A stretch of 64,000 nucleotides of DNA from Rhynchopus sp. YZ270_cl-10. Taxonomy: Eukaryota. The stretch covers positions 2,418,001-2,482,000 of the forward strand of contig OZ037833.1 of the NCBI GenBank assembly GCA_964035575.1, in the 5' to 3' direction. Positions 1 through 61,823 of the stretch are shown in pieces. Positions within the stretch are counted from its first letter, which is position 1. Each line of letters opens with the position of its first letter. A model generated the notes under the pieces. The model searched no databases. It saw only the letters and a list, made by a program, of their open reading frames with translations, and was not told the origin of the DNA. The translations under genes and the position numbers were made by a program.

Positions 1-239
1 TTTTTGAAAGATGTCTGCACGAGAGGTTTCATCTTTCAAGTTTTTTTTTTTTTTTCATCTGTTTTTGCCAGCCCCTCCGCTACGTTTTCAGATTTTTTTT
101 GAGTTCTGTTGCGGGTGTTTTTTTTCACCCTGCGCCAGTGAGTCTTATCCAGGGATTCAGATTTCAAAATAGGGGGTCAGCTGTTTTTGTGCCCAAAAAA
201 TTTTCAGCACTGCTGACCAGGTACATTGGGAACATAGGG

Positions 240-475
240 AACTGTATTTTTTTTTGCGAAGAAAAAAAAAAATCAAACAAATGGCGCCGCAGGCGAAAAA
301 AAATATAGGGTACAGTGTAAAAATCTAGCTTTTTACAGCACAGAGTCACACATCGAATCCTTTTTTGCGGAGCAAAAAAGGAAATATGGCGCCGCAGGCA
401 AAAAAAAATTGAGGTACAGCCTGGATGGTGCGGTCAGCAACCCAGTTCCCCATGGTACTCTCGTGGTTCAACCAT

Positions 476-476
<1 letters not shown>
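240..476 (+). repeat. Dispersed repeat; related copies at about 22120-22235 and 51714-51840
   Basis: Shared ttttgcggagcaaaaaa..tggcgccgcaggc..aggtacagcctggatggtgcggtcagcaacccagttccc blocks. Confidence 0.75.
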
Positions 477-518
<42 letters not shown>

Positions 519-1677
519 AAAATTTTCAGACTTCTGTTGCGCCGCAACAGAACTTTATACGGTAGCGGAGCCCCTGGTTTTTGCTGAATCATTCTGTTTG
601 GGTAAAGCGAAAATAAGACTGGTCGTCATTATATCAAAAGGACCGGACACCTTTGGTTTATTCTGGTTTTTTCATTACATTTCAGGTCAAGAAAAAATGG
701 TCAGACCAGATGTATTTTCTTTCTTTTTTCATGTGTGTGCACAAGAGGCACATTCATCTTACAAGTTTTCATTTTTTCTTTTATATTGTCTCATACTCGG
801 GCTGTTAGCTAATTCACTTCCGCTTCTGGCGAAAATCCGTGGGAAAAAAGTTAGGGAGATATCTAAATGTTCGCTGTTCTCAATCACTTCGATTGTTCAA
901 ATAAAGCGATTTTTTTGGGGTTTTTTATTCACCACCTAAGACCCAAGGGCTGAGAGGTATCTTCAGGGCTTACAAGGCCTATATAAAGCCATTTTTTTTT
1001 TGTCAAGGGTGCTCATCAGAAAAATATGAAAATATGTGCGAATTATTCCAAAAAAACAGCCCTTTTGAGGTGGTTCGGCAAAAAATTCCCGCCTGTGGCA
1101 ATCCTAGACCTATTTTCACCCTTTTCTCCGTACAGGGGGCTGAATACCCACTGTTTTTTTTTTCCAGGGAAAACATTTGTTACAGGATGTCGGAATTTTC
1201 CGGAAAATTTTCCAGAATTAGCTGACAGCCTGCATAATCTACCCACACATCTGGAGATGATTCATGCAGTTTGAAACCATCTTTGTTGTCCTTCCCCTCT
1301 TTGGTGGCCTAATTGTGCATATCATTTCTTTTTGAAGCCGCGGTATTTTTCTTCTCTTTAAATTTTTGCTGGGGGTGTGTATTGTATTAAAACCCCCCCA
1401 GTAATGTAGATACTCAGCGAACATCAGTTTTTTTTTTTTTTTTACAAATGCGTGCAGAGTTTATTTTTCGATCCGGTTTTTCAGGCCTCAAGGGGGGTCG
1501 AAAATTTGTCAGCCGGGTCCCCACCTTAGCTCAAGTTGGGGGCCTCCGGCGGAATGTGAGAATTCCGCGGAGTTCGGCACTTCACTGATATTTACACGAG
1601 GCAGACGGGGCATACGAATTATCAGTAACCTCAGTACATTTACAAAAGAAACGGCGGTCATGGCACCCATAGGTTCC

Positions 1678-1800: not shown

Positions 1801-3215
1801 CGGCGCTTGACTAATTGAGTCGCGTTCTGGCTGCACTTTGTTCACGAGGCACGAGGCTGAATATGGCCCCATGGCGAGTGTGGGTGCATGCCGGGCCACC
1901 CCCCCTGTAAATTTTTCGGCCCCCGGATTTTTTTTTTCTCCACCCCCTGGACACGTCTGAAAAACCCCCCAAGGGGGGGTCGAACCCCCCCCCCCCCCCC
2001 ACCCCCCCACAAAAAAATCTCTGAATGCGTGGAGCCATATTCATCCATCTTTCAAAATTTACCCCCCCTTTTTCTTTGTATTTAAAACCACCCCCTTGTT
2101 TCAACCCTCCCTGAGGGTTTTCTTTTCAAGATTGACTATTTCATGAGAGGCTTAGGTTCATCTCATGACCATTTTCTCTTTTCTCTGTCCCCCCGCCACT
2201 ACAGGGTACCGGCATTTTTTTATATTATTACTGGCATCAGGGGATATAGGGGGTTTTACCCCCCCTTGTAAAATGTGATTTTTTTGCGTGACAAACGTTT
2301 TTTTTTACCCATCTCGTAACCTCTACAACTCTTTTACGGCTGGGCGGTAGAAAATGAGGTGTTTTTACTTTCTCTTTTAGTGTTGTTGTTTTTAGGGATG
2401 GGGGGGAAAGCAGTTTTCTTTATTTATGTGAAAGGTAGGAAGAGAACTGGCCGAACCACTCCTTTGCAGGGTCGTACCAGCGCCGGGTGAAACAATCCGT
2501 TGTCCTAAGGGGTGGGTGGACAATAGCTACCTGCTGCACAACTCTAACTTTTTTTTTCAAGGTACACTGTCACGAGAGGGCTTTGTATTTCAATATATTT
2601 TTTTTTTTTTTTTGGTTTTCAGACAGGGTTTCCGCTTATCTTCATGGAAAAATTTTTTTTTCCAAAACCGTGAAGATATGAAGATATGTCCAAAAAGGGG
2701 TCAAAAAAATTTTTTTCGCGCTCCGCGCGAAAAGGTCCGTCCATTTCAGGTAAATACGTGATGACGTGGGATGGTAATGTACATCAAGAACCAAACCAAC
2801 CCTTTTTCTCATGTTTTTTCTACGCCTGCCCTCCCTCAGTATAGGGAGAAACGGCGGTCATAATATCAAAACTTTTTGGCGAAGCCACGGTACGCAACAT
2901 TTCAAAAATTGTGACTTAAAATCAACCATTTTTACAGACAAACTATGGTAGAGGGCTGTGGGATTCCGCTCATAAGTTTTGCGCCGCAGGCGCACGGTAC
3001 GCTACTTTTTTTATTTTTGTCGATCCCTTATTCTCACTCTTTGTCAAATGGTGCAAAGATTGAGGGACTTGGGGCACGGTCTGAAACTTTACCTCGCTAT
3101 ATCCTCTTCACAATGATACCAGGAAGGGGATAAGACGCGCTTCGCGCGCGCGCGACGCCCTGCCTCCCCTTTTTTTCTGGGTTTTTTTTTTTTTTTTTTT
3201 TTTTTTTATTCCCCT

Positions 3216-3564: not shown

Positions 3565-3580
3565 GTGAAATAAAATTACG

Positions 3581-5623: not shown

Positions 5624-5683
5624 ACAAGGGGCATTTTCAGGTCTGAAAACCCAAATTCAGATGAAATTGTGGTGTTTTGACTG

Positions 5684-10293: not shown

Positions 10294-12422
10294 ACTGTGA
10301 AGGAATCTACTTTCTGTTCAGGGCAAGGGGCTTGCGCATGTCTCTTGAAGTGCACAGGCCCCTCCGTTGAGCATGAAGCTTTACTCTTACACAGGCAAAA
10401 TCGTCATTGTCGAAGAGACAGCACAAAAGAAAAAAATGGAGATTGTAAACACACAAATTCCAATTTTTTTCAAATCAAACAAAAACAAAAAAAAGATCAA
10501 AAAAAAAACCCCCCCACCCCCACTCCCATATCAAAAGGCCATCACAGTGACCCAAACAGAAGGGGTCCAGAAACAGCAGAAAACATTTGTTTGAAGCAGC
10601 TTCTTGGTGGTTGTGGGATTTTTTTTTTTTTTTTTTTATTCTTTCGTTTTTTTTTTCCGTTTTTGTCCCTCTTTTCAACCCTTTTTTTTGGGGGGAATTT
10701 TCTCTTTAATACCCTCCCAACATCCATTTTTCACTAATACCCCATGGGGATGAACGAGAATGGGTACGGGAATTGGGGATTAGAGTCAACCCGTCCCCTT
10801 TTTTTTAGCTTTTTATTTTTATTTTTATTTTTATTTTTATCCACGCTTTATTTTTGTTGTAACCCCGCTCACACACATGTAAGGTGAGACCAGCAGCCGT
10901 TTGTAGCATCACCTTCTCAAGCTATGTAAACACACTACCTTAGAAAGGTAAGGGAACAGGACAGTACAGAGAGGCGAGACCCCCCTATCATCTAGGGGAA
11001 ATTTCCACTGCAAAATGCTTCAACGCAACAAAACGAACAACAACAAAAGAGACACAAGTAACTTTTTATTTTTTTCTAGTGCGATCCGCTGATCTACGGT
11101 GCAGTGTTTGCATTGAAAACTTTCACTTTCTCTGTTGTATTGTCCCCTCCTTAGTGCATCAAACCGTGGGTAGGCCCCCTTACAATCGTGTATTCGCCAT
11201 TTTTTTTTTTTTCTTTTCTTTTCTCTGGCGAGAAAAATTGGTGAAAAATAAATAGTGAAGCACACTCTAGGGTGGCTACACTAATACAACCAAGTTTTCC
11301 AAAAAAAAAAAAAAAAAGGTGGAAACAAAAAAGCGACTATGCAGTGTGTCTGTTCGCTTTTTTCTTTTAGCTTTTTTTTTTTGCAACATTTTTTTTTTTT
11401 TTGACGCGACTCACCCCCCTCTCTTAAGATGACTAAGTATTGTGCTTAGATTCAACTTATCAGTTTTTTTTTTCTTTCTCTCGTTTTTTTCTTTTTTTTG
11501 ATCATCATTCGTTTGATGCTTCATATTTTCATCATTTTCTTTATATCCGCATCTGGTCGTACCTTCGAAAACAAAAAAGGGGTAAACATATACAACAAAA
11601 TCCTCCTCTGGAAGATGATTGCGATGTGTCAGTGTAAATAAATGCTATTTTTTTAAAAAAAGGCGTTCAACGATACACCGTATTACCCTTAAAATTCGGC
11701 GATTCACAAACCTTTACTAAATTAGCACAAAAAAAATTGTGAGTATTTTTAGTTTCGTTTCAAAAAATATGAAAATAAACGAGACCATAAATGAGGAATG
11801 AATACAACGTCTTCATTATGATTTTTTTGTCTAAAAAAAAACGCAAAAAAAAGGATGGAAACCCCATTTAAAAAAAATCGTGAATAAAACTGCCGTTTGG
11901 GTAAAAAATACAAAATTATATTTACCCCAGATTTTCAAAAAAAAAAAAAAAAAGGAAACAGAGAGAAAATATGTCTCGGGACCAAGTGGTCTGAGGCAAA
12001 AAAAAAAAAGTGGGACATAACCTGCTTTGGTGGGAGCTATGTCACCACAACACACAAAAAAAAAATGGTAAGAAAAGAAAAGACTACAAAAGCAAAAGTA
12101 GAAAAACAAACAGACTCTATTTCCTTTTGATGTAAACCACGAAATGGATAGCAGGACTGCATGGTTGCGTCCACCCCCCCCCGGTACACTGTCGGGCTTT
12201 GTATTTCAAGCCAACTTTTATCAGATGAAAAACCTCGAAAATAGTGGAGTTCATCTTCGGGTGTCTACACTAAAACAACCAGGTTTTCAAAACAAAATAT
12301 CGAAAAACCTCAAAAACTGCATGGTTGCGGGGTCCACCCCCCACCCCACTGAAAGCCTCACCTACATTCACACCCACTAACAGCCCCTCCCCTTTCCCTT
12401 TTCCCTTTCTCAATACACAAAA

Positions 12423-43557: not shown

Positions 43558-43587
43558 ATGTGTGTGCACGAGAGGCACATTCATCTT
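43558..43587 (+). repeat. Type copy of hairpin family B (atgtgtgtgc-acgagag-gcacattcatctt)
   Basis: Copies at about 6, 731, 31495, 43558, 45470, 45875, 52042, 53838. Confidence 0.8.
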
Positions 43588-45071
43588 TGCAAAACCTTGG
43601 CTGCGAGATTTTGTTGAGAATAGAAATTCAGACACACCTACCTTAACCTGCTCTTGTATCCTTTCCCCCTCTTCTGGTATTTGGTTTATAGTTTCATGGT
43701 GTCCTAAGCAGTCTGCGTTTTTGAAGTTGTGTTTGCAAAAAAAAGCTTCATTTTTTTTTTTCTCTCGAATTTAAAAAAGTCCTTGTACCTTCTCTTTGGA
43801 AAGGATATGGATCGATTTGTCCCCATTATAATCCCTGATTTTTTTTTGAAATCTCGACATCTATTTTTCACAAATGCAAAAATAATTTTTGACCCACATG
43901 AAAAACTAATTAATTTTAGTAACGAAAAATGAGTCTCAGCAACAGAGAGCCCCTTTCTCTCAAGGCTCGCCTTCGTTACTGTACTAAATTTTTTTTTTTA
44001 TATCTACAAGCGTTAACTTAAAGGAGAAACAGTTTCCTCCGATACGGTCGCCAATCACCCCTTGGGTAATTGAGCGCAGTCAACAAAAATAACCTTTTTT
44101 CCTTTTTAGTTACCCATCAGAGTGCCGTTTTTTTTCTCTTTCCGACAAAGAATAATGGATACTTCCTCATGGAAGACAATGGGCCGTTTTTTTTTATCAA
44201 GGTGACTAAGCAAATGAGGCTTAGATTCATCTTACAAACCTTTCTTTTTTACATAACGACTGCAAGGTGACTAAGCGAGAGAGTTTGTGTACCTTCAGCA
44301 ACACAAAAAGCGCAAAAATAAGATACACTCATTTTTCTAAGCTTAGCCTGACATGTGGCAAACAAGAAAACATTGCAACAAGTTGGCGACTATTAAATAT
44401 CACCAACATGCACCTTTGTTCATCCAAGATAAAAAAAACAAAAGAAACAAACAGATGTAAGCAATCAAGACAGCGCTTCTGCATAACAAATGATAGAGTC
44501 GATGTCGATAGCTAACTTTTATATTTTACTTCGTGCCTGATAGACAAGCAATGGCGAGTATGGGCAGCCAACCCATTCCGACCAAGGGCAAGCTTGGGCG
44601 ATGAACCCATTAAGACCCACAGGGCGAGCCGGGATATATACCCGAGCCGACCCTGCCCCCAACCCCCAACCCCCTGCCGAGCCGAGCCGAGCCGAGCGAG
44701 TGTGCCGAGCCGAGCCGAGCAGAAAAGACTTGATCGACCAGAGTTACAAAGTTTCTTCATAAAAAAAGCTAAAAAAATGGTTGAAGATTAAAATCTACTA
44801 ACAACCTGCAAACCACCTGTGTCACTATTATGCTGACTATCGACCCACGTGGCGAGTCAGTAGTGGCGTTATATTTGACCCTTTTTTTAACAAAGTACCC
44901 TGCTATATGCAGAGTAACTGCCTTGGATGAGGTGAGCTACGATCATCCGAAAATATAAAACAAGTTTTTTTTGAACATGATCCACTTTTATTTTTGCAAT
45001 TTTGATTTTTTCATTCTTTTACAATGTAGGTTTCGAAAACTGTCTGGGCCTTGAGCGACAGCGGAACACTA

Positions 45072-45162: not shown

Positions 45163-46975
45163 ACAGATGTACCACCCTACAAAAACTTTTGAATATGCAT
45201 ATTTACAAAAAAACAAAAACAAAACAAAAAGGATCCAAAAATACAACAAAAAAGATTGATGAATAACCAATGTTCAAAACATTAAGTAATCTAATCAGAC
45301 TAAGCGAGAGAGGCTTAGGGTCATCTTACAAAGAAAAAATTCTTTCTGTTTCTCTTCTTTCTTCCCCAAATCTAACTGGTGTTTCCCTCCCCCTCTCCCA
45401 TTGATATCCCCACACTTTTTTCCCCCAGAGAATGTGACATTGTTTTTTTTTCAAAATGTGTGTGTGTGTGTGTGCACGCGAGGCACACTTCATTTTACAA
45501 TTTTTTTAAAAGTTAATTTTCAGACGTCCAGCAAACGGTGGTGTAAAAAAAAAACCCACCAATTTTTTTTGACTCCCTCGACTTCACCAACTTTTTTTTT
45601 CCGAACCAACGTTTTGTTGGACGTCTGTACTTTCATTAACACCCTGGTTTGTCCCTCCCCTCATATCTCTCTCCCCTCTCAATTAAGCTTGTTTGAGCAG
45701 CTTTGCTGCGTATCTGGGGGGTAGGCTTGTAGATACAAAAGGCCTCCCTCCTTCCCCTAACATTTGGTTGACTGAACACAGAGACGCAGGTGCATCGTAC
45801 CAACCTTTTTAGTGTTGGATCTACCAAATCTCCTTTCCGTATTTTTATAATTACGGCATTCAGACAGCTTTTTTAAGATGTGTATGCACGAGAGGCATGC
45901 TCATCTCACAAAGTACATTATTTGCCTTCTCTTTCTGAAGAGGAAGGATTGGTTTTTGTCGATAATCAAGGAATCTTGTATTACCTGCGGATGCATAGGA
46001 GCTGTTCGATGCCCCATGTGCACCAGTGGCTACTGCAAACTAGAGTCTTCATTGTGTAGACAGCCTTCTTAACCGTTTTGTTCAGCATCGTATTTTTAAG
46101 GAAACCAAGAAATACCAATGTATTTTTCGACCTTCTGTCGAAATTATCACAGTATATTATACTATAGTAGTACAGTTGCCACTAGTTGGCTCGGATCACT
46201 TTACCCCCTTTTCTTAAACATTATTGTGTTGCAAAATAAAGGGGGGACCCGTCGATTATTTACCTATTTTGGTGTGTTCCGGGGTATCGGAAAATACAAA
46301 TTTTCACCAATCTTCACCAATCTTCACAAGTTTTCACAAGTTTTCACAACATAATTTTTGGCCATTTTTTTGTGAAGAATTGTGAAGAGTTGTGAATAGT
46401 TGTGAAGAGTTGTGAATTGAAATGAAAATTTGGATGAAAAAAACACAGATGTTGTGAAGATTTGTGAAGAGTTGTGAACAGTTGTGAAGAGTTGTGAATT
46501 GGAGGGAAAAAAAGGGGGGTGTTTTTTTCCAGGGTTTTTGCAGGACTGGTCAGGTAAAGTGTGCTGTGCAGAGGGCTAGCTAGCGTGGGTCTGTGAGTCA
46601 AGCTGGCCGTACCACCCCACCCCCTGTGCGGAGGAGGACGACGGAAGTCCGCGGCGTGTTCGTTTGTTGCCTTTTTTTTTTTCAACATGTTCACAACTCT
46701 CAAGAAAGTAGCGTACCGTGCGCCTGCGACGCAGCTAAAAATTACTAGCGGTAGCCCACAGCTCTACCCGAAATGTTGCGTACCGTGGCTTCGCTAGAAA
46801 AGTTTTGTACCAGTGGCACTACCACTTGTTTCCCTGTTTTTTGTACCGTTTTACTCAAAACACAGCTGGGCGCAACTAGCACCATACTCACCTGAACTGT
46901 GCCTATATTAGGCACAATTTCAGCACACTTTCAGCACAAGTACACACACGTACACGTCGGGGCCATATGTAGTGT

Positions 46976-47594
46976 AGTACTGTACTGTACTGTACTGTAC
47001 TGTACTGTACTGTACTGTACTGTACTGTACTGTACTGTACTGTACTGTACTGTACTGTACTGTACTGTACTGTACTGTACTGTACTGTACTGTACTGTAC
47101 TGTACTGTACTGTACTGTACTGTACTGTACTGTACTGTACTGTACTGTACTGTACTGTACTGTACTGTACTGTACTGTGTACTGTGTACTGTGTACTGTG
47201 TACTGTGTACTGTGTACTGTGTACTGTGTACTGTGTACTGTGTACTGTGTACTGTGTACTGTGTACTGTGTACTGTGTACTGTGTACTGTGTACTGTGTA
47301 CTGTGTACTGTGTACTGTGTACTGTGTACTGTGTACTGTGTACTGTGTACTGTGTACTGTGTACTGTGTACTGTGTACTGTGTACTGTGTACTGTGTACT
47401 GTGTACTGTGTACTGTGTACTGTGTACTGTGTACTGTGTACTGTGTACTGTGTACTGTGTACTGTGTACTGTGTACTGTGTACTGTGTACTGTGTACTGT
47501 GTACTGTGTACTGTGTACTGTGTACTGTGTACTGTGTACTGTGTACTGTGTACTGTGTACTGTGTACTGTGTACTGTGTACTGTGTACTGTGTA
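46976..47594. repeat. Compound satellite: about 40x TGTAC followed by 59x TGTGTAC
   Basis: Perfect arrays with an abrupt switch at 47176. Confidence 0.97.
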
Positions 47595-48036
47595 AAAACC
47601 ATAGGGGGGACCCTATGGATTTCCGATGTCCGAGTTTGAGGACCAAAAATTCCATTAAAGCAAGAATTTTTAACTTTGGAGTATCTGTGGTACTCTCATA
47701 TTTTTTCCTAACTCGCACAAAATTTCTAAAAACGGTGTTAATAATCCCCACCAAAAAGGCGGATAAGACGAAAGGAGACGAAGTAACCGCCAAGGACTCA
47801 CCAGTGCGTCGATCCATAATGTGTGAGAGATGCAAAACAACCACCGCCATAATGGAATTAACCTGTAGGTTAACCTCACACAGGACAGTCTCGTCGCCCA
47901 CAAAGGTCAATAATACACTCCGGATTTTGGGGACAATTTTTGACCGAAATGGGCCGCCTATTAGTGACCGGGCTCATATTTTCCGAAATTTAAGAGGTCA
48001 TAAAATTGTCCAATTTTCAACGTCGGCCCCACCACT

Positions 48037-48723
48037 CATACTTGGACCGCCCGAAATATATTTCGGGCATTTCGGGCGGATTAGGGGCGGATTTCGGGCG
48101 ATTTTGTGCGCCCGAATTTGCCCGAAAACGCCCGAAATGCAGATTTCGGGCGGATTCGGGCGCTTTTTCCTTAGTGAAAACCGACTAGGTAGGTTTCTAT
48201 TCATTTTTGCAAAAAACTTTTTATATTTGGAAATATTTGATGTCAAATCTGTCAAAATAAGCAAGAATCGAAAACTTTTGTACACCTGAGTGCACTTTGG
48301 GAATCACCACCAAACACGGGTTTTCTGACTATCATGTGCTTATTCCCACCCAAAACACACTATGAACCGGGGTTTCACCATTTTTTCGTATTTCAAGGTG
48401 AATTTTTGTGAATTGTCGGGTCACAGGGTGGTTCTGACCCATTCTCGGGGTGTTTCGGACTTTTTGCTCAATTTTTTTTTCTTTGAACAAATTTTGTGCC
48501 AATCTTTCAAATAAAGCGTAAAATTTTTACACTGGTGGCATGCTTCCCAGCACACATAAGATACTCCAGTGCACCGATTGTGCGCCCGAATTCGCCCGAA
48601 TTACGTATAAATTCCCTTTAAAACGCCCGAAATATATTTCGGGCACATTTCGGGCGCTCGGGACCCGCGCCCGAAAAATCCGCCCGAATTCGCCCGAAAT
48701 TTTTTTCGGGCGGTCCAAGTATG
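48037..48723. mobile_element. Innermost TIR element with CCCGAA/TTCGGG subterminal repeats
   Basis: catacttggaccgcccgaaa / tttcgggcggtccaagtatg flanked by the direct repeat ACCACT. Confidence 0.8.
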
Positions 48724-51700
48724 ACCACTGCACGGGGATCCCAAAAATGCAATCCAAGTCAAAAAGTTGAAAAAAAAACACACCTAAAAACACATGGCCC
48801 AAGAATGGCCCAAAAGGGTCCAAATCGTCCCGTCAGCCGCACCATTTTAGGCACTTTTTGCACATAGAACCTCCTGTGTTGCCAACCAACGTCCTCCAAA
48901 AGGTGTCCTGTACCTACCTGGGTACCTGGGTGCCCAGGCACCACCCAGACTTCGCCAACTTCACAACTCTTCACAACTCTTCACAACTCTTCACAACTCT
49001 TCACAACTCTTCACAACTTTTCACAACTCTTCACAACTCTTCACATACACGTTTTTGTGAAAATTTGTGAAGAGTTGTGAAGAGTTGTGAAGAGTTGTGA
49101 ATTGAAATGAAAATTTGTATTTTTCGATACCCCGGAACACACCATATTTTAATATTTACCTTCGTGTATTATTTACCTTTTTAATGCCAAACATTGTATT
49201 ATTTACCTTTCGTGTATTATTTACCTTTTGAATTGGCATTTAATTAATTAATTTTCCGCCCCGCTTTTTTTGGGTGAAGTTCTGAGGCACTGGACGTGTC
49301 GCTGAAGCTCTCAACGTCCAGGTCCAGGCTCGCCACGCTTGCCTCGTCGAGGCCGACGACCATCTCGCAGCGGCCACGGCGCACCTCATCCCACTGGTGG
49401 TTCAGCTCTGCAAGGGTCGAGGCGTTCAACATGACGGCGAGAGGGGTTCCGGGGAGGGGGAAGGGCGGGGTGTGAAAATGTGTTGTGCAGTGAGTCGGGG
49501 GTCTAGTGGGTGTGCATCGAAAACAGGACCGTTTACCCGCAATAGGTCAAACCGTATATTATTTACCTTTTGAATTAATAAAGTCCAAATATTGTATTAT
49601 TTACCTTCCATGTATTATTTACCTTTCGCGTATTATTTACCTTTCGTGTAATATTTACCTTTTCAAAAGGTAAATAATCGACGGGGCCCCCCTTTAGGCG
49701 GTCGGCGCGATTGGGGAAAAAGCGAATCTGCTTTTTATTGTTTAGTAAGTGTTGAAACCGTGTCATGAATCTGATCTAGGGTTTTTGCCTGCGGCTTTGC
49801 GCACAAAACAAACGGTGTGTCCTATTTTTTATTGTCTTTCAGAAGGTGACTAAGCACAGCTTTTTTAGGATCATCTTGCCAACATTTTCTGTACTTCGTT
49901 GGCGCTCTACCAGGTATTTATTTATTTATTTATTTTTTAAAACTGAGGAGTGCTGTCGCAGCTCCACAAAGGAAAGCAGATATTTGAACGCAACCAAACG
50001 TGAGCCCTTCTGCATTCAGAAGCGCGTCCAATCGGTCGCAATATTTGCAAAAATTTTCCAATATATTTGATGCGGTTTCTCTCCGAAGACCTGGGTGATA
50101 TGAGAGTAGAGAGCCTCTTGGTGGATCGATTGTCCTCCTGGGGGTGCAATATACTTAACCCTTTATTCTCTGAGTGTTCTTTTTCACTTTTACATTGTTT
50201 TTTTGAAACCTTTTACCATTCCCTTTAGGGAACGGAGCATGCACGGTCCTAGAATCTCCACGAAAATGGAGTCGGCGGACTTAAAAGGAAGGTGTCTTCC
50301 TAAACGTGCACATTCATTGTTCAAGATTGTTTTTTCACCTCGTGGTTTAGGTATCAATCACTTTAGTGTTGTCTTTCGACTTCTCTCCAGGTTGCCTAGC
50401 CACAGCGGTGCACTATCAACTTCGCTTTTGTTTGATAGGGTGTCTGTGCCTGTGAGGCTAGCTCTGCATCAAGTTTTCTTTACGTTTAACCTTCGCAGCA
50501 CTCCAGGGGTTCGATGGCACATGGAGCGTCAACGTGCCTGTATCCCAGAGGCGTTTGTACTAGCCACTTCCCTTGTGTTGCTCTGATACGGTCAGCAGGT
50601 CATTGCACTTCCTAAAGGAGTGTTCCCCGTTGATACGTCAGGCCCAGGGGCTTCTTTTTGCATCTGAATTAAAAAAGCTTTAAACGTTTCGATTACGATT
50701 TTTGTTCAAAATGAAACCAGCATTTTATTCAAAACGAACGGTCCAATTCTTCTTTTGGATGTGTCCGTGTACTACCACCTTTGTCCACTACATTGCTGCG
50801 TTTTCCAGCAACCTAACTACAACTTGAACTCAATCATCTCTCCTCGCTCGCTCTCTCTCACTCTCTCTTTCTTTAATCACATCTTCATTGTGGAGACACC
50901 CGAGCATGCATCTCCCGATCTACACTACATTCCCCCCTCTTCACCTTGCGCACTGTGATTAGCAACCAACAAAGCAAGCCAACGTTTGATCTCAGGCAAC
51001 AAGCCTTTCCCCCCCTTTTGAAGCAGAGTTTGACTCCTATTTGGCTGCGTTCAACGAAAAGCACTGTCTTTACAGAGATCAGTTGGAGGTTATTGTTTGG
51101 TTTTATGCGTGCACACAAATGAGGGAGATGCATTTTTGAGTTCTTTTTTTTTTTTTTTTCAGTGGCAGTCAGGGTATAAGCTTGGATTTTGGATTTTTTC
51201 CAGAATTAGGTTTTGAAATTTTTTTTTTGGTGGGGTTATAGCAGGGTATTATATAGCCCCCCTAGCCCCCACCAAAAAGGTGGTTTTGTGTGAGGCAGTC
51301 ATTTTTTTCTGTGGGGGAAACGAAGCGAAAAATTTTCTCGGTATTTTGTGACCACGGCAAACCACCCCAACCCTGCGGAAAAGCCTCCCCTCCTCTGTGC
51401 AACCTTGGTAGCTTTCAGCCACTGGTGATCCGCAATCCGTAGTGGGTGTCAGCCTTATTGTCGGTAACCTCAATACATTTACAAGAAACGGTGGCCATGG
51501 CACCCAAAGGTTCCTGGCGAAGCCACGGTATGCAACATTTCTAAAATCGCGCTTTAAAATTGCACTATTTTACAGGCAAACAATGTCATGGGAAGGGTGT
51601 GAAAGCTTGCGCCGCAGGCGCACGGTACGCTACTTTTATTCTTTTCGCCACATCTTTTTTCTCACTCATAGTTGGGTTTTTCAAGCTCCGTCCGTCAAAT

Positions 51701-52464: not shown

Positions 52465-54293
52465 CTTTTTGTTTTGTCTTTTTGCTTTTAATTGCTTTTT
52501 GTCACAATTCTCTGGTCCCCATTTGGATTTTTTTCCCTTCAAAAAGTGTAGTTATTAAAGAAACCCCTCTTGAAAGCCTGTCTATACCTCTCTCTCTCTT
52601 GGGGGTGAGAGTGTATCGTCTGTTCAGTGTGTATTTACCTCAGCTCATTTGTGTTTGTCCATCTTATTGAAAAGCGTGTTCACCTTCTTCCCTTAGTTGG
52701 TTGTATTGTGAGAATTGCCCATAATACATAATACATAATACACATCACAAAACAGCTGTATTGTGATGTGGGTTATGTATTTATGGGCAATTAACACAAT
52801 GCAGCGAACTACTCTCTCCTCCCCTTCCCCCGTCTGTTTTCGTTGGGTTACCAACGATTTCTAGTTATGTACTCTTCGTTCTAGTTATAGTTCTGGACTT
52901 CTCGTGATTTGTTTTATTCTATTTTTGAAAACCCCACCCCATCTGTTGCTCTTCACAATTAAAATACTCGGACTGTGGACGAACCCGGTTCTCCTTGTCT
53001 TTACCTGCCAAATGAATTCGTTCTTTTTTTTCTTCAAGGTGACTAGGCAAAAAGCTTAGGTTCATCTTATAAATTGTTCTTCTCGACTCCTGTTCTTCTT
53101 GTAACCGCGGGCCACCTTTTGGCCCCATTTCACAAAAAAAAATGGGAAAGTGACGCAGAATAATTCTAATAAATAACGCAGAAAAAAATATATTCATACA
53201 ACAAAAACCATAGATAGAGACGCATCAGGCTCAATTGTGTGTTTTTTTAATTAGAAAAATCACAAATTGTCATGCGCATTCTCTAGCTATGAAAAAGGTA
53301 CAAAAAATGTGGTTCTGTTCTTATCCCCGTTTTTTCGTTTTGTCATAATGATTAACGGGGGAAAAGAGCGTTTCAATGCAAAAATCGCAAAACGTAAAAA
53401 AGAAAACAAAGGGAGCACGCTGGAGGTACTGCTATATGGAGTTGCCACGTGGTATGACTTCTAAAGCACGCTGGTAATAGCATTTCCCCCCGGTAGATTC
53501 CAGTGAAACCAAATTGAAAAGAGAGCACTCATCTAATTCGGATGAGTTTTTTCAGTAGACACATATCAGATGGAACACGTGTTGCCAATCTGACTTCAGT
53601 TCGTACATACACAGAAAAGTAAGGATTCTTGCCAGCGGCTTTGCAAACTGAAACGCCCGATCTTTTTTCTTTGTTTTGTCTAAATACCACAGCTCTCTCC
53701 CCACAAAAGGGGCTTTTTGTCCTAACGAATGTCTATCCACACGCCAGTTTATGGCCCTCTTCTCCCTCTCTTCATTTTAAAAAAACACTTCGAATTTTTG
53801 TCCGAAAAATCTTTCGTAATGTCATGTGCATCTGTTCGATGTGCCCGCACGAGAGGCACATTTGATTCAGGTACAGTTTTCTTCAAATGACAAACTACGA
53901 GAGACTTTCGGTTTTATCGCACAAAACTTTCCTCTTTTTTATGGTGTTACATTACTCGTATATTTTGTTTTCTTCTATTTCTTGCATTTTCCTCCATCCT
54001 GAATGGGTTTGGGAGAAATGCTTCCAAGTGTGCCAGTGGACTTTTTAAAAAAAAGTTGGGGGTATTTTTTTGATTCCTTTTTACACGCCTGCATCACCTC
54101 TCTCTCTCTCTCCCCGCACATTAACAACTTCACTTTTGTAACCAGCCTTCTCCTTCCTCTTTCCCTTAGGCAACTTAATCACAGAGGCTTAGGTAGGGAC
54201 CATCCACACTGCCTTCTCTTTTCCCCTTCTTCCACACTGTCATCAACACCAACACCAACACCTGACAGAGCCACCACAACACTACCTACAACA

Positions 54294-54572: not shown

Positions 54573-55511
54573 GACTACCCTCCAAGGTGAGCTGAAGCAC
54601 AGACGAGATTACCCACACACTTTTTATTAGGTGAGCCTGAGACTCTCCAATTTAACTCTTTTTTTTGATGAATCAATGCAAGAAAACAATGAGAAGAGAT
54701 CATAACCGTCACGTTGGATCAAAGATGTGGTGTGGGGGAGGATCTATTAATAAATTCCTCCTTTTCACATCATGTCAGCCGCGTGATTGTTATGGTATTT
54801 TCTCCATTTTACCACTTTGAAGACGTTCATAGTTTCAATTTTTCAAAAGAAAATGTGGATTTTTTTTGGGCTTTTATTTTGTGTTTTTTGAAGAAAAGGA
54901 CGCAAGGTTAAAAAGACCGTTTAAAAAAAATAGACACAGAGAAAAAAAAAAAATACAATTTGTTTTAGAAATGGCCCCGACTGGAGCCAATAGTTCTCTC
55001 TTGCCGGTCTTTCTTTCTATGTAACATACCGCAACACTGAGACTGGACAATTCACCACTTCAGGAGAAAACAGAGCATAAACATACTGTGGGTGTTCTAA
55101 CGTTATCGATAACGGTATAACACCCACAGTATGCATAAAGAGAAAAAAAGCTCCGTACTTTAATGTACTCAAAGGGAAACCCTTCCCTTCCCTTCCCTAC
55201 GCAACTATACACAATTAGTAAAAAAAAAAAACGGCGTTTTCTTCCAATATTTTGCCACCCTCCCCATTTTTTTGAGGTACATAGTACTCTGTCACGAGAG
55301 GGATTTGTGTTTCTAGGATGTGTGTTTGCAATGATCCTTTCATATGACTGAGTGGAAGCGGGAGTAGCGCATATCAGATGCAAACAACGAACTGGATGGA
55401 CTGCATGGTTGGGGTGTCCCCCCGGTACATCGGGCTTTTGTATTTCAAGCCAACTTTTTTCTTGTCACGCCTACCATACACCTCAGACACGAATACGACA
55501 ACAAACTCACT

Positions 55512-56819: not shown

Positions 56820-59226
56820 AAAAGAGAGAAACTAAAGATTTTTTTTTTTTTGCTTTTTTTAAAAACGTGAAGGGGTTCGATGATTGTAATCGCTGAGAAA
56901 GATTGGGAGGGGTCATTAAAAAGGCTCTCTCGCGCAATTATTAACTGAATGAAAATGCGAAAGGTTTTCTTTCATTCTTTGATCAATTTATTGATTGCAT
57001 ATGATGAAAATATTCTTTGAGCCAAGAGAGAGGCCCGAAAACGGCAATGTCCGCATTCACCATGGGGTAGAGGAACCCTTTTTGACTGAGCCTCACCCCT
57101 TCCTACTCAGATGCCCTATTTTTTAATTTCAATTTTTTTTTTTTGTATATTTTCTACGCTTCCTTGTTTTGCATACCCAAAAAGGGTATCGCAATGCAGT
57201 ACAAAAAAAGAGGGGAAAAGTGTACTTGAGATGGTGCCAACCACACTATTCATGCCCTTCCCCCCTAAAAAAAGCATAGCATTTTGTTTTGCCCGAGTTT
57301 TGTGTATTTTGTGAGTTTCTTGTATTTTTTTTTTGCGCTTTTTTTTTGTTTGAGGAGTTAAAAACATAAAGCTAAAACCACCAAAAAGAAAGGGTGCATG
57401 TGTTGACCCTCTCACATACTTTCAATTCTGTGAATTGAAAGTATATGAATCTAATTTGTTTGGTAGTGATGGCGAATCCAACAGAGGCTCGGTAGTTTCA
57501 TATTCACCATTTGTTATAAGGTGACTAAGCACGAGAGGCTTAGGATCATCTTATAAACTTTTCTTTTTTTTAGTGTTGAAAATTCGATTCAATACTGGTG
57601 AATATACTTTAGTTTTTTTTTTTGTTCCACACAGTTTTCCCCCTCCATCAAGTACATTGTTAATAAAATTCAATCTCCTTGGGGGGCTTTTTTGATACCT
57701 TACAACCCCATGGTTTCGGAGTGCTCCGCAAACGTGTGTCTTTTACATCCCTTCATTTTTTTTTTTTTGTCGTTACCACCGTATGTTACCTCCACAGGCT
57801 ATACATGCACACTCGAAAACGTTGCCCCCAAAGAAAAAAGGCTTTGCTCTGGGATTGCGGTTTTGTTGTTAATCGTCCCTTCCCCCCCTTCTTCTGCTCG
57901 CCATTCAACGGAGGAGGGGCCGTCTAGGGTTATAAACTCTAGGTAATAGTGGTGTGGCTGGAAACAGTCTGTGCCAAAAACAGTACTAAAGTTACACTTT
58001 GGCCCAGCCACATCAAAAAAGAGATTTTTTTTTGGGGTATTTTTGTGTCTGGACAAAAGCCTATTTTTGATGCAGCTCTGCTGCTTTTTAAAAGCACAGA
58101 GCGGTTCGTCGTGGTGACATACATTTTTTTTTTCTCTTTCCCTTTCCCATCCACGCTTTTTTGTTTTTTGTTTTTGTTTTTGTTTTTTGGATATGACTCA
58201 AATAACCCCGTCCACACCCCAGCTGCTGAGTACATATTTGCAGAGTTTGGTTCCAGACTCTCCCAATCAACGCACTTCAATTTCTTTATATCGCCAGTTT
58301 CTATCTCTTTGCATTGCTGTTTATTCCTACCCCCATATTGTCTCCTTGTTGTATTCCTTCAGCACTCAATGGTCGTGCAGTGTATTTTGCCACTAGAATA
58401 CATCAGCATATATTTTGAGGAAGAGGGTAGGAGCTGGGGAAGGGGGTAAAAGTGTGTGCCAACGTTTTACAGATCCCCTTCTTTTTTGATTTTTTTACTC
58501 TTCATCGTTCACCCCTTTCCCCTCGATGCAAAAAAAAGTTTGTAAGTCACCAAACCCTTTAGGGATATTTGAGAACCCAATTCTTGGGTGATTGGCAATA
58601 CAAATAACAACAAAAAAATAATCGATGTCTAAGTGACTCACCAAGGTACTTAGGCGATTGGAAAAGAAGAAAAAATCGTGCGGACGTAACAATCTGCAAT
58701 AAAGGGCTTTATCCTACATAGCCACGACCCCCCCACAACCAACGACCTTTTCAAGGTGTGACTCAGCACCGGAGAGACTTAGATCCATTCTTACTCACAC
58801 CCCCTCCCCCTCCCTCTACCTTTTTAACTGATCCTTTGCTGTCTTTTTTTTCTGTTTTCTTAATCTCTGAGGATCCATTTTTTCCTTTTTAACAAAACAT
58901 GTAATTACAAAACGCGTTTACCCCACACAAAAAAAGTTCCTCCCTCCCCCAATCAATAGAATTTTCTTCTGCCACCTCATGAAATGGAGATATAAACAAA
59001 GCATTTTGAACACACCTTTGCGGTTCTAGGGACGAACCGCACTGCAGAGCCACCCCCTCACCAAACAGGTTGAGGTGTTGTGCGTTTCACCACAACCTGT
59101 CTCCCATGGGTTTTATCGTGTGATGAGTGTTACGTGCATGAGTTTCTATTTTCCCCTCCCAAAAAAAACCCCCCCTTCTACCAGGTGATTGTATACAAAC
59201 CACAAGAAAGGACAGAAACAGCATTA

Positions 59227-61476
59227 ATGCCTATCCGGAAAAGGGGTCGTCTTATCTCTCAGGATGATGCTGTATCTTCTGTTGAATCTACTACCACCAG
59301 CCTTCCCGCTGCAGAACTGCGTTACCATGAAGCAAATGGGTGGTTTGGTGGTGTAATGTGCAGTGTGTTGGTTGGAGTGGTTTCAACAGCATTGTATTTG
59401 CGGAGTGCAAGCGGATCGGTGAGTGGTGGGGATAGCGGTGAGTTGATGAGCGTTGCGAAGGAGTTTGGAGTGGCACACCCACCGGGATATCCATTATGGG
59501 TAGGGTTGTCGTATGGAGCAGAATCGAGCGGTGTGGGGATGCATGTTGTGTCACCTATCTGCGGGGGCATATCAGTGGCGGCTGTGTTTTTAACGGTGTT
59601 TACGTTTACGTACTCTCGCGGGGCTGGTCTGGCAGCTGCAGGGAGTTTTGCGATATCGCCTTCGGTATGGCGTTATTCTGTGACCCCCGAGGTGTTTGCG
59701 TTAAACAATGCAGCGTGCGCAGTGCTCCTGTGTATCGGAGTTAGGTATATCGTTCTTAAGAGGACCCGGTCCTTCGCAATGCTGCTGTGTTCGATAGTCA
59801 CCCCGCTTGCATTATCAAATCAACACACTTCAGCGATTTTGATTGCCCCTAGTGGAGTAATGCTGGTTGGACACTATGTTTTTATGGCGAGCGGGTTTGA
59901 TACAGAGAAGATGGTTGTACTGGGATTGTCTGCGGTTGCGTTTTGCTTTGTATTTGGCTTTGTTTATAGTCAGTTGTTGTGGGCAAGCTATGGGAATAAT
60001 AGTAAACACTCTTGGGGTGCTGTATTTGATTCTGAAGGATTCTGGAACCATGTATTGCGGAAGGAGTACGGTACGTTTTCTCTGGCGAATCAGAAGGCAG
60101 ACTATGCAAAGCCCGACGTCGCTGCGTCTGTCCGCAACTGGGTGTACTTCCTCTCGAAGAACCTAGACATCCCCTTGGTGTGCACAGCATTCATCGGACT
60201 CACCACACCGCTTACCATGAAAGGCCACGCCCTGCTCTCCACGCAATCCTTCTTCATCATCAACCTCGTCTGCTACATTCTCTTTTTCGCCTATCTCGGG
60301 AACCTTCCATTGGACACTGCACTGTTCCGTTCAGTCCAAGAACGCTTTTGGTTACAACCGTATCTATTAATCTGCCTTGGAGTAGGGGCGGGGTACCATG
60401 GAATCGCTTCGTTGATTACGCCAAAAGAAGGGTTCATGAAGAATCTCATTAAGACCTCATTGGTGGCGTTGTGTATAGCATATTTAGTACAGACAGGGAT
60501 GGAGAGATTTCCAGAGCAGGATCAAAGTGAGAACTACGTTGTAGAAACATTTGGTGATGCAATGTTAAAGCCTCTCGCAAAGAACAGCATTCTGCTCACA
60601 AAGGGGGATATTTTGACGAATTCGGTACGTTATGTGCAAACCTTTCGTGACTATCGGCGGGATGTCATGAATCTTGACGTAGAAATGCTTACCTCACTTT
60701 GGTATATTCCGCGAATCAAGCTTTTTTATCCAAAAATAAACTTTCCTGGTGCGTCGTATTCTCCTAAAGGGTTTAATGCACGGCATTTTTTAGAAGCGAA
60801 TTCGAATCGCAAAATATATGTCGCATATGACCTTAACCCAAAGGATAAATCATGGGAAAAGGGGTATGATAGGGTTCCGGTGGGCATGGCTGATTTGTTT
60901 GTTACAAAAAAGCAGAATGAAGAGTTTTCGAAGAAGTTCATGCAGAGCATTCTGAAGAGCATGGCAATGACCAGCGAGGAAATGGACCACACCCTTCTAG
61001 CGGTGAATTCCGAACCGTGGGATGAAGTCTGCGTGAATGACTATTGGGCGTCGATTTTTAGGATGGGGCATTATCTGGCGAGGAAGGCGGATGAGATGTC
61101 AAAACAGGGGAAATTCAGGGATAGAGGGGACGATGTGGAGCATTTGCGTGAACGGGCCACAGAGCTTTTCTCGCATGTTCTCAGGAATGGGGTGAATGGA
61201 ACGAAGCCGTATGTCCGTGCTCTCTCTGCCAAAACAATGTCGACAGTGATGGTTGCCCGCATGATGAAGCTGCCCGATGAGGAGGTGGAGGAGCGTACCC
61301 CGCTTGTCAACGAGGCCAGCTTTGCTATCACAGTCTTCATCGCCACTGCAGAGCAGCTTCCTGATAAGTTCGGAGCTGCGGAAATCGGTCAATACCGTGA
61401 ACAGCTCGCAGCATTCAAAAAAGCCCTTGCATCTGGAATTCCTGGAGGCATGCCAAAAGGAGCGAAATTCAAGTAG
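59227..61476 (+). CDS. TMEM260: TMEM260/DUF2723 family multi-pass GT-C glycosyltransferase (protein O-mannosyltransferase-like)
   Basis: GGDSGEL...GVAHPPGYPLW, EVFALNN, LSNQHT, HVLRKEYGTFSL, ERFWLQ; many hydrophobic segments. Confidence 0.87.
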   Translation: MPIRKRGRLISQDDAVSSVESTTTSLPAAELRYHEANGWFGGVMCSVLVGVVSTALYLRSASGSVSGGDSGELMSVAKEFGVAHPPGYPLWVGLSYGAESSGVGMHVVSPICGGISVAAVFLTVFTFTYSRGAGLAAAGSFAISPSVWRYSVTPEVFALNNAACAVLLCIGVRYIVLKRTRSFAMLLCSIVTPLALSNQHTSAILIAPSGVMLVGHYVFMASGFDTEKMVVLGLSAVAFCFVFGFVYSQLLWASYGNNSKHSWGAVFDSEGFWNHVLRKEYGTFSLANQKADYAKPDVAASVRNWVYFLSKNLDIPLVCTAFIGLTTPLTMKGHALLSTQSFFIINLVCYILFFAYLGNLPLDTALFRSVQERFWLQPYLLICLGVGAGYHGIASLITPKEGFMKNLIKTSLVALCIAYLVQTGMERFPEQDQSENYVVETFGDAMLKPLAKNSILLTKGDILTNSVRYVQTFRDYRRDVMNLDVEMLTSLWYIPRIKLFYPKINFPGASYSPKGFNARHFLEANSNRKIYVAYDLNPKDKSWEKGYDRVPVGMADLFVTKKQNEEFSKKFMQSILKSMAMTSEEMDHTLLAVNSEPWDEVCVNDYWASIFRMGHYLARKADEMSKQGKFRDRGDDVEHLRERATELFSHVLRNGVNGTKPYVRALSAKTMSTVMVARMMKLPDEEVEERTPLVNEASFAITVFIATAEQLPDKFGAAEIGQYREQLAAFKKALASGIPGGMPKGAKFK

Positions 61477-61823
61477 TCTTTTACGTCGTATGGGGGAAAA
61501 CGTTTTTATTCTTTCAAGGTACACTGTTTTTGTATTCCAACTTTCTTGATGACTAAAATAACTTAGCTTCATCGTTACCATTTTTTGGGGGGTATTATGA
61601 GGTTACAAGCAGAACCCTTTTTAGGTCGATTGTGACCTAATCACAGGATTAGGTTCATCGTTCCCATTTTTTTCTCTCTTTTATTATGTTCTGTGTTTTT
61701 TCCATATTTCCGTGGTCGCTCCTTAACTGCGGTGTCTGCTCTTTTTTTAAAAAAGGCTTTTTTTTTTTTGATTTTCTGCCACTTTCTTACCTCTCTATTC
61801 TCATCGACAGAATTGTACACAAA

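What the first reader, a model, noticed from the sequence alone, without database searches (positions are those of the whole stretch)
6..61660. Co-oriented superfamily of ~35-nt hairpins sharing the loop C-ACGAGAG-G on unrelated, covarying stems
Seen: 30 or more dispersed copies, all that I could orient lying on the gene strand, usually between a T-run and catctt(a)(c/t)aa plus a T-run. The same loop caps different stems: ctaagc/gcttag (family A, 28158, 57518), tgtgc/gcaca (B, 43558), gtatgc/gcatgc (45875), gtc/ggc (D, 2559, 55289). Substitutions often keep pairing: ctaatc/gattag (61636, double compensatory), aggtga/tcacct (28895), aagatg/catctt (32025), ctaggc/gcttag (53043, G-U), ctaagt/gcttag (11433, U-G). 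G-U pairs work only on the + strand. Inference: selection on a single-stranded + strand structure rather than neutral MITE decay (the MITEs here are symmetric or occur in both orientations). Candidate roles: protein-bound processing/stability signals in polycistronic pre-mRNA (analogous to trypanosomatid SIDERs), tiny ncRNAs, or REP/IS200-like ssDNA hairpins mobilised by an HUH enzyme encoded elsewhere. I know of no description of this family.
Basis: partly seen in the sequence, partly recalled or inferred. Interest (0 to 1): 0.85.

Follow-up and report, generated by a model that had tools for sequence, protein, structure and literature searches.

The report
Tiny one-way hairpin repeats in diplonemid
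The DNA between the genes of a marine diplonemid protist carries many short (about 45-base) hairpin repeats that in this window all point the same way as the genes; they are likely tiny mobile elements, probably copied through RNA, rather than dedicated gene-control signals, and my literature searches found no description of them.

Summary
The repeats are real. A covariance model finds 32 copies at E<0.01 (27 were training copies) and 41 at E≤1, all on the + (gene) strand and none in coding DNA. The window is diplonemid nuclear DNA. Contigs of public runs show the element is high-copy genome-wide (4,161-5,506 contigs per run), with a sharp 5' edge and T-runs on both sides; all 15 listed neighbour joints are head-to-tail. 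No target-site duplication was detected. Stems diverge less than loop and bulge (11% vs 22-33%), and the G·T-rich subfamilies fold better as + strand RNA than as DNA. The loop is not conserved in copies (3 of 23 intact; CpG decay), the G·T excess among copies is not significant (16:8), and the stems are related. Co-orientation is shared by every polar repeat family in the window (117 of 119 pairs). Copies cluster (0-19 per interval) with no fixed distance to genes. Best reading: an undescribed set of sense-oriented micro-elements, likely spread via hairpin RNA into T-tracts. An ssDNA/HUH route is the main rival; a primary regulatory role is less likely. No RNA data or whole genome were available.

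The parts
28152..28203 (+). Family A, best copy: T-run, lower stem AAGGTGA/TCATCTT with one G·T pair, 2-nt 3' bulge, upper stem CTAAGC/GCTTAG, loop ACGAGAG, tail ATAAA, T-run
   Evidence: CM 72.9 bits; folds; genome-wide edges
57512..57563 (+). Family A copy, intact loop, stem extended to 17 bp
   Evidence: 69.8 bits
44193..44244 (+). Family A copy, loop changed
34330..34381 (+). Family A copy
32019..32071 (+). Family A copy, lower stem AAGATG/CATCTT, GCGA loop
52317..52368 (+). Family A copy
31552..31603 (+). Family A copy
28888..28936 (+). Family A copy, loop shortened
27534..27585 (+). Family A copy
53030..53079 (+). Family A copy, loop replaced by an A-run
29944..29997 (+). Family A copy
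20493..20543 (+). Family A copy
39069..39123 (+). Family A copy; a sister 5' arm lies 90 bp upstream (about 38985)
49837..49888 (+). Family A copy
27220..27271 (+). Family A copy, intact loop
11420..11469 (+). Family A copy
28232..28284 (+). Family A copy, 80 bp behind the 28152 copy
2123..2175 (+). Family A copy
45287..45338 (+). Family A copy, 5' arm eroded
33605..33657 (+). Family A copy
20821..20870 (+). Family A copy
61623..61672 (+). Family A copy with a double change in the upper stem (CTAATC/GATTAG)
40596..40648 (+). Family A copy
20636..20689 (+). Family A copy, not in training set
   Evidence: E=0.0012
61540..61586 (+). Family A copy, not in training set
   Evidence: E=0.003
45758..45809 (+). 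Family A/B-like copy, not in training set
   Evidence: E=0.005
29403..29462 (+). Family A copy with enlarged loop, not in training set
   Evidence: E=0.009
45869..45918 (+). Family B copy (GTATGC/GCATGC, intact loop)
43549..43598 (+). Family B copy (TGTGC/GCACA, intact loop)
722..771 (+). Family B copy
2..46 (+). Short B-like copy with a 10-bp perfect outer stem and intact loop
45457..45507 (+). Family B copy with GT-repeat expansion, GCGA loop, not in training set
   Evidence: E=0.002
23080..23131 (+). A/D intermediate (C), intact loop
   Evidence: E=0.62 (weak)
53835..53872 (+). B-like copy, intact loop
   Evidence: not a CM hit
31860..31945 (+). Decayed A copy followed by a second hairpin with an intact loop
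   Evidence: E=0.016
2556..2597 (+). Family D solo hairpin (GGTACA/TGTATT + GTC/GGC, three G·T pairs, intact loop)
55272..55315 (+). Family D-like hairpin, intact loop
61512..61545 (+). Family D solo copy, loop deleted
27860..27975 (+). About 95-115-bp element that ends in the D hairpin; high-copy genome-wide
12125..12222 (+). Long D element, loop deleted
55372..55461 (+). Long D element, loop deleted
17742..17806 (+). Family E hairpin (other loop; same CAACTT + T-tract end). Further copies at 11069, 20684, 28318, 33088, 52407; short forms at about 50531 and 51975
51457..51672 (+). Family H, about 200 bp, two GNA-triloop hairpins, ending TAC + T-run. Further copies at 1618, 2847, 6738
46237..49696 (.). 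Nested inverted-repeat (MITE-like) composite. It holds the only reversed copies of polar families (46687-46817, 47970-48035) and serves as an internal control

Best explanation
These are likely tiny non-coding mobile elements that are probably copied through a gene-strand hairpin RNA and re-inserted, without a detectable target-site duplication, into T-rich tracts in the direction of transcription. SHOWN: a ~45-bp polar hairpin between T-runs; high copy number; a sharp 5' edge; head-to-tail neighbours; no TSD; stems spared while loop and bulge decay; several sequence families sharing a hairpin + short spacer + (C/A)AAC + T-run 3' end; and solo hairpins that are also the 3' ends of longer elements (D, E). 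INFERRED: polycistronic transcription reads all intergenic DNA from one strand, so each sense copy yields a U-flanked hairpin RNA. Only copies that keep the stem would serve as templates, which explains stem conservation and stem swaps between subfamilies. A reverse transcriptase encoded elsewhere would prime on an A-run of the template strand and leave through a second U/A micro-homology, giving T-runs on both sides, no duplication and sense orientation. After insertion the copies decay, including at the loop CpG. Some copies in long 3' UTRs may have been co-opted secondarily. A mobile-element origin of any route I put at about 0.8; the RNA route is the less certain step.
For: Copy number and edges: 4,161-5,506 contigs per run lie on one 120-bp stretch; summed depth peaks at 1.0-3.0 million against about 100 for single-copy contigs (overlap-inflated, not a copy number); loose ends pile up at 28158 with T-run consensus on both sides. 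All 15 listed joints of 17 are 'goes back' (head-to-tail), none changes strand. Density is one CM hit per 1.5 kb of non-coding DNA, with 0-19 copies per intergenic interval and no fixed distance to the next gene (51 hand-listed copies). No TSD: p=0.31, 0.064, 0.35 in three permutation tests on 26 copies. Substitutions: stems 66/594, non-CpG loop 25/111, bulge 15/46. RNA vs DNA fold z-scores on +: A -4.8/-4.0, B -3.6/-2.5, D -1.3/+1.0, E(17740) -2.0/0.0, E(20694) -2.6/-0.8; for D and E the - strand z is above 0 as RNA. Consensus stems carry 8 G·T and 0 A·C. D and E hairpins occur alone and as 3' ends of longer elements. Precedent in the sister group: SIDER retroposons are about 4-fold sense-biased and have a T-rich motif upstream (PMC2689281, PMC2323293; passages). 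P. papillatum encodes many reverse transcriptases and has unidirectional gene arrays (PMC10161547; passages).
Against: No enzyme or autonomous partner is in the window. No RNA run was available, so transcription and folding are untested. Trypanosomatid retroposons leave ~12-13-bp TSDs and end in an A-tract on the sense strand; neither is seen here. Insertion in T-runs without TSD is the published signature of Helentron-type rolling-circle elements, and co-oriented family H has GNA-triloop hairpins typical of DNA mini-hairpins. Family A folds well as DNA too (z -4.0), and nearest-neighbour parameters favour G·U in RNA by construction. The RNA z-scores for D (-1.3) and short E (-1.15) are not significant. 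A sharp 5' edge is unlike random 5' truncation. One window cannot separate transcription from replication direction. No empty site was found in five paralogous flank pairs inspected.
Confidence: 0.45

Rival explanations
1. Miniature single-stranded-DNA elements moved by an HUH (Helitron/Helentron-like) enzyme: the hairpin-bearing strand is pasted between T residues of an exposed single strand (lagging-strand template or displaced non-template strand), which fixes the orientation.
For: No TSD and T-runs at both ends match HLE2/HINE insertion (PMC4067079, PMC11417382; passages). Hairpin 6-12 nt before a short shared 3' motif (CAACTT 35 on + vs 11 on -). Head-to-tail tandems and modular ends. Family H carries GAA/GCA triloops, and the C-GAGA-G loop fits a GNNA DNA mini-hairpin (PMC13037366; passages). 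Rep-mobilised transposons insert orientation-specifically (PMC10288648); IS200/IS605 follow fork direction (PMC5371812); Paramecium Helitrons show absolute strand bias (PMC13085455). Helitron-like ORFs exist in P. papillatum.
Against: D and E stems are G·T-rich and fold no better than shuffles as DNA. No 12-15-bp subterminal repeats plus separate 3' palindrome, and no CTRR end. At 45 bp the element is no longer than the 38-60-bp stretch between a HINE's 3' subTIR and its end. No partner seen.
Confidence: 0.27
2. Host-selected RNA cis-signals (processing, stability or protein-binding hairpins in polycistronic pre-mRNA or long 3' UTRs).
For: Strict sense orientation, stems spared, GNRA-type loop and G·U pairs on the transcribed strand. 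The covariation score exceeds shuffles (2/500 in A1; 0/500 in the structure-fitted A2). Diplonemid 3' UTRs are long, and SIDERs were co-opted this way.
Against: Loop intact in 3 of 23 and decaying at CpG on both strands (7 C>T, 6 G>A). Most copies differ from the best copy at about a quarter of positions. 0-19 copies per interval with no positional rule, and 4 of the 12 intergenic or terminal intervals plus both introns hold 0-1 listed copies per interval with several at 0. Unrelated families are equally polar. No hit in 83 kb around 22 euglenozoan KMP11-like loci (these loci are probably distant relatives). Covariation among related subfamilies is not independent evidence.
Confidence: 0.15
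3. Ordinary T-tract-targeted repeats inserted in either orientation, with antisense copies removed afterwards (for example because they make antisense RNA that feeds RNAi or disturb pyrimidine tracts).
For: T-tracts are already 62-77% on +. P. papillatum has RNAi and 5mC pathways.
Against: Removal would have to be nearly complete (0 of 41). Two reversed copies of polar families persist inside the nested element 46237-49696, and long palindromic MITEs are tolerated.
Confidence: 0.08
4. Spliceable micro-introns or introner-like inserts, tolerated only in sense orientation and akin to the end-paired non-canonical introns of Hemistasiidae.
For: The family A consensus contains a 23-nt GT...AG segment (16 of 23 copies). 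A. motanka non-canonical introns have a median of 37 nt, paired ends and a proposed MITE origin (PMC12621601).
Against: 0 of 41 hits lie in 14.9 kb of CDS. GT/AG are stem positions no better kept than their neighbours. B lacks them. The window's introns use GTATG...AG.
Confidence: 0.05

Closest known systems
SIDER1/2 and ingi-clade retroposons of trypanosomatids (PMC2323293, PMC2689281)
   Same: Dispersed non-coding repeats in intergenic DNA of directional gene clusters, sense-biased, T-rich sequence upstream, sister lineage.
   Different: About 45 bp vs about 540 bp. No 79-bp-type signature seen, no 3' A-tract on the sense strand, no 11-19-bp TSD. 41 of 41 sense vs about 4:1. The whole element is one hairpin.
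HINE / DINE-1 non-autonomous Helentrons (HLE2) and Helitrons (PMC4067079, PMC11417382, PMC4683698)
   Same: T-rich target, T-runs at both ends, no TSD, hairpin near the 3' end, high copy number, modular ends.
   Different: No subterminal inverted repeats plus separate palindrome, no CTRR, far smaller, G·T-rich stems. In my searches absolute strand bias was reported only for telomere-targeted Paramecium Helitrons, not relative to genes.
IS200/IS605 ends and bacterial REP sequences (PMC5371812 passages; REP details recalled)
   Same: Short imperfect hairpins with bulges, polar, orientation tied to an exposed single strand.
   Different: Eukaryotic. No Y1 transposase found, no inverted REP doublets, T-run flanks. 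Replication coupling untested.
MITEs (TIR/DDE)
   Same: The lower stem can be read as a 6-10-bp terminal inverted repeat.
   Different: No TSD, asymmetric 3' tail, strict polarity. True symmetric MITEs lie in the same window (25009-25613, 39485-39804, 46237-49696).
Non-canonical introns / introners of Hemistasiidae and Amoebophrya (PMC12621601, PMC7789003)
   Same: Similar size to A. motanka introns (median 37 nt), paired ends, necessarily sense-oriented.
   Different: Never in CDS here, no direct repeats, splicing untested.

Membership tests
SIDER / ingi-clade retroposon | 11-19-bp target-site duplication | tested here: not met
   Permutation tests on 26 copies: p=0.31, 0.064, 0.35; old copies could have lost TSDs
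SIDER / ingi-clade retroposon | 3' adenosine-rich stretch on the sense strand | tested here: not met
   Short A(C/T)AAA then T-run
SIDER / ingi-clade retroposon | 79-bp 5' signature | tested here: inconclusive
   The element is shorter than the signature and has no shared upstream sequence (loose-end agreement 0.42-0.44). No Rfam hit. The signature itself was not aligned.
SIDER / ingi-clade retroposon | Sense bias in gene clusters; T-rich upstream motif | tested here: met
   41 of 41 on +; T-rich left flank; one window only
HLE2 / HINE (Helentron) | Insertion in T-rich sites, Ts on both ends, no TSD | tested here: met
   not confirmed by an empty site
HLE2 / HINE (Helentron) | 12-15-bp subterminal inverted repeats plus a separate 3' palindrome | tested here: not met
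   Single hairpin; pairing outside the 7-bp lower stem is at chance (p=0.25)
HLE1 (Helitron) | 5' TC, 3' hairpin 10-12 bp before CTRR, A|T target | tested here: not met
   The genome-wide 5' flank consensus ends in TC, but 3' ends are (C/A)AAC or CTAC + T-run, not CTRR
Helitron-like elements | Autonomous RepHel partner sharing termini | not testable with these tools
   No genome held; none in the window
MITE (TIR/DDE) | TSD and orientation-free insertion | tested here: not met
Known structured RNA families (Rfam 15) | Match to a family model | tested here: not met
   0 at gathering score; none of 28 weak hits at E<=5 overlaps a hairpin copy except a T-rich Phe_leader hit ending near one; no tRNA
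Spliceosomal or non-canonical micro-intron | Removal from RNA | not testable with these tools
   No RNA holder listed

The most novel reading that the evidence does not exclude
A new class of minimal selfish RNA hairpins: ~45-nt elements made by constitutive polycistronic read-through, selected on their RNA fold, and re-inserted only in the sense direction through a transcription-coupled route. They would polarise the whole repeat landscape of a diplonemid genome at around 10^4 copies per family, and could be the raw material of the ~37-nt end-paired non-canonical introns of other diplonemids.
Probability: 0.2. Interest if true: 0.85.

Novelty: new variant of a known kind. Interest (0 to 1): 0.58.

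Why it matters
If the polarity holds genome-wide, this protist has a repeat landscape whose direction is set by transcription (or replication). Such an absolute bias exceeds the roughly 4:1 of SIDERs and would reveal a strand-specific insertion route in a eukaryote. At about 45 bp the elements would be very small for high-copy mobile units. They offer a direct way to test two open questions in Euglenozoa: where hairpin-type non-canonical introns come from, and how repeats enter the long 3' UTRs that control expression. In practice they also mark transcription direction and fragment short-read assemblies.

Tried and rejected
No whole genome is held, so orientation at strand switches could not be tested. 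No RNA holder was listed; this is not evidence either way. The runs laid (X1-X4) cover coding and non-coding DNA evenly and showed no empty-site allele among the listed joints (15 of 947 shown); X6 gave only 5 short pieces. One search listed no substitution rows, so no genome-wide mutation spectrum was obtained. Exact-pattern scans found nothing in metagenome contigs, viral contigs or prokaryote genomes. HMM and CM searches of 22 KMP11-related loci (83 kb) gave 0 hits. Rfam and tRNA scans were negative. TSDs seen by eye were not significant. Pairing between flanks beyond the lower stem is at chance. Local duplication as the cause of co-orientation was rejected: neighbours <400 bp apart are not more alike (p=0.32; Mantel rho -0.01; 34 copies), although 2 of 11 close pairs are clearly sisters. 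T-tract bias alone gives P<=3e-4 for 32 copies and <=1e-2 for 18 clusters (that call counts 15 clusters among the 32 hits, so the clustered value is somewhat optimistic). A palindromic scaffold search could not tell strands apart. RNAalifold gave no consensus for D and E because of gappy alignments. An H/ACA reading was rejected: no pocket, and the ACA after the stem is poorly kept. A hammerhead reading of E was rejected by eye (core incomplete). The loop resembles the rRNA sarcin-ricin tetraloop, and the 3' motif resembles some bacterial HUH-element ends; both are recalled from memory and untested. No transposase or RT remnant was found in 24 ORFs scanned with Pfam. Earlier scan notes held nothing for this genome or sequence; the eight word matches were other genomes. 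Literature: searches found no description of this family. The repeat section of the P. papillatum paper (Additional file 1) was too large to read and may bear on this; its seven other files had no hit.
Full report
SETTING. The window is nuclear DNA of a diplonemid. The pseudouridine synthase at 61824-63122 has its best outside hit in a Rhynchopus humris transcriptome protein (63%), KMP11 is present, and the PEP mutase gene has two GTATG...AG introns, the 5' splice motif reported for Diplonemidae (PMC12621601; parts 1-2 of 8 and passages). All recognisable genes are on +, as expected for the unidirectional arrays of diplonemids (PMC10161547; passages). No whole genome is held.

OBSERVATION. CACGAGAGG with at most one mismatch occurs 33 times against 7.4 expected, and all 11 exact matches are on +. 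Iterated nhmmer gave 30-36 hits at E<0.01, all +, none in a reversed decoy at that cut-off. A covariance model built from 27 copies found 32 hits at E<0.01 and 41 at E<=1, all +, none in 14.9 kb of CDS. Family A reads: T-run, lower stem AAGGTGA/TCATCTT (one G·T), 2-nt bulge, upper stem CTAAGC/GCTTAG, loop ACGAGAG (predicted as RNA: bulged A plus C-GAGA-G), tail A(C/T)AAAC, T-run. B and C share the lower stem; D has a related one.

GENOME-WIDE VIEW. Contigs of public runs were laid on the window. On a 120-bp stretch around the best A copy, 4,161-5,506 contigs per run align. Summed depth peaks at 1.0-3.0 million against about 100 for single-copy contigs; this is inflated by contig overlap and is not a copy number, but it points to thousands or more. 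Loose ends pile up just before AAGGTG, with T-run consensus on both sides and low agreement (0.36-0.48), so most A copies stand alone in unrelated T-rich flanks. All 15 listed joints (of 17) are head-to-tail. The long D element and E are also high-copy. No RNA holder was listed.

WHAT IS CONSERVED. In 23 family-A copies substitutions are 66/594 in stems, 25/111 in the non-CpG loop and 15/46 in the bulge (p=1.5e-5). In the 10 indel-free copies the figures are 19/260 vs 17/70 (p=3e-4). Thirteen copies have loop-region indels and one has a stem indel. Only 3 of 23 keep the exact loop, and its CpG decays on both strands (7 C>T, 6 G>A), as methylated neutral DNA would (inference; P. papillatum has 5mC enzymes). 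G·T vs A·C among copy substitutions is 16:8 (p=0.15) and 9:10 in the 14 non-training hits. Double changes are few (5 cells; 23/500 shuffles). The higher figure on the model-fitted alignment (13 cells) mixes subfamilies and leans to the model. The strand asymmetry lies in the consensus stems: 8 G·T and no A·C over A, B, D and E (hand-defined). The + strand folds better in 34 of 40 copies as RNA and 32 of 40 as DNA. Against shuffles A folds well as either, whereas D and E fold better as + RNA (z -1.3, -2.0, -2.6, -1.15) than as + DNA (+1.0, 0.0, -0.8, -0.1); only two of those RNA values are notable. So the fold matters, the loop letters mostly do not, and the evidence fits selection on source elements or mutation at hairpin tips as well as selection on each copy.

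POLARITY IS GENERAL. Self-comparison shows a dozen other small families. Diagnostic motifs are 9:0, 5:0, 6:0 and 6:0 on +. Outside one nested inverted-repeat composite (46237-49696), 117 of 119 repeat pairs are co-oriented, and the two exceptions belong to a symmetric element (local inverted pairs, microsatellites and T/A-rich matches were dropped first). The only reversed copies of polar families lie inside that composite, which suggests orientation is set at insertion rather than policed later (n=2). Many families end in hairpin, short spacer, (C/A)AAC and a T-tract (CAACTT 35:11). D and E occur alone and as 3' ends of longer elements. T-tracts are 62-77% on +, too weak for 32 of 32 (P<=3e-4) and for about 15-18 clusters (P about 1e-2 or less). 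Neighbours are not more alike than distant copies. There is no TSD and no fixed position relative to genes.

MECHANISM. High copy number, sharp edge, unrelated flanks, tandem stacking, modular ends and decay make a mobile origin likely (about 0.8). Two routes can give strict polarity. (i) RNA route, preferred (0.45): all intergenic DNA is transcribed from one strand, sense copies yield U-flanked hairpin RNAs, and an RT would prime on template-strand A-runs. This fits G·U-rich masters, the GNRA-type loop, solo 3' modules and the SIDER precedent (about 4-fold sense bias, PMC2689281; T-rich upstream motif but TSD and A-tail, PMC2323293; passages). (ii) ssDNA/HUH route (0.27): T-run insertion without TSD is the Helentron signature (PMC4067079, PMC11417382; passages); family H has GNA triloops of the DNA mini-hairpin type (PMC13037366; passages); HUH elements insert directionally (PMC10288648, PMC5371812, PMC13085455; passages). 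No enzyme for either route is in the window. A primary host-signal role (0.15), purging of antisense copies (0.08) and a micro-intron reading (0.05; 23-nt GT...AG in 16 of 23 A copies) remain. Every step from transcription onward is inferred.

KNOWN OR NEW. The family fails defining tests for SIDERs, HINEs, Helitrons and MITEs (see membership table) and matches no Rfam family. It is absent from the collections scanned. Searches of the open literature (and 33, 39, 45, 66, 83, 84) found no description; the unread repeat supplement of PMC10161547 and paywalled papers could hold one. I also saw passages of PMC4683698, PMC7789003 and bioRxiv 10.64898/2026.07.29.740908. It works like a non-autonomous mobile repeat but is not a member of a named family, so I rate it a new variant of a known kind. 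That rests on one transcription unit plus local head-to-tail joints elsewhere, and needs the genome to confirm.

Noticed in passing
window 1618-1800, 2847-3044, 6738-6987, 51457-51672 (also 4022, 5682, 6281): About 200-bp family with two GNA-triloop hairpins, each followed by CGGTAC(G/C)C and a T-run; Helitron-like 3' anatomy, all +. A related hairpin lies in family 201/22081/51707.
   Followed up: partly
window 46237-49696: Nested composite of at least three inverted-repeat elements around GTACT / GTACTGT microsatellites, carrying reversed copies of two otherwise + families.
   Followed up: partly
window 25009-25613: Perfect 245-bp inverted repeat with a 115-bp spacer (young foldback or MITE).
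   Followed up: no
window 4499, 11244, 12219, 15047, 39328, 39918: Co-oriented family with core TACACTAA that ends in an A-run on +, unlike the T-ended hairpins.
   Followed up: partly
window 14150, 18064-18151, 29708-29806, 33451, 39379-39434: Co-oriented family ending TTGTCGA(C/T)AC + A-run; one copy is in the 980-bp PEP-mutase intron. It joins other modules head-to-tail.
   Followed up: partly
window 17715-17730, 33060-33080, 50505-50515: The long form of family E has a GGTTCGA(T) motif resembling a tRNA B box (recalled consensus); possible Pol III/SINE origin.
   Followed up: no
window 12423-14425: Phosphoenolpyruvate mutase gene with two GTATG...AG introns whose 3' ends are A/C-rich rather than pyrimidine-rich; suggests phosphonate metabolism.
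   Followed up: partly
window 41812-43098 and 55512-56819: Two paralogous phosphatidylserine decarboxylase-family genes 12 kb apart, intronless, with different codon bias.
   Followed up: no
window 4850-5560: About 700-bp array of AAAAATCAC(A)-type units; related inverted arrays at 23760, 46270 and 48951.
   Followed up: no
window 13400-14110: A 190-codon open frame inside the PEP-mutase intron with no Pfam match; possibly a decayed insertion.
   Followed up: partly
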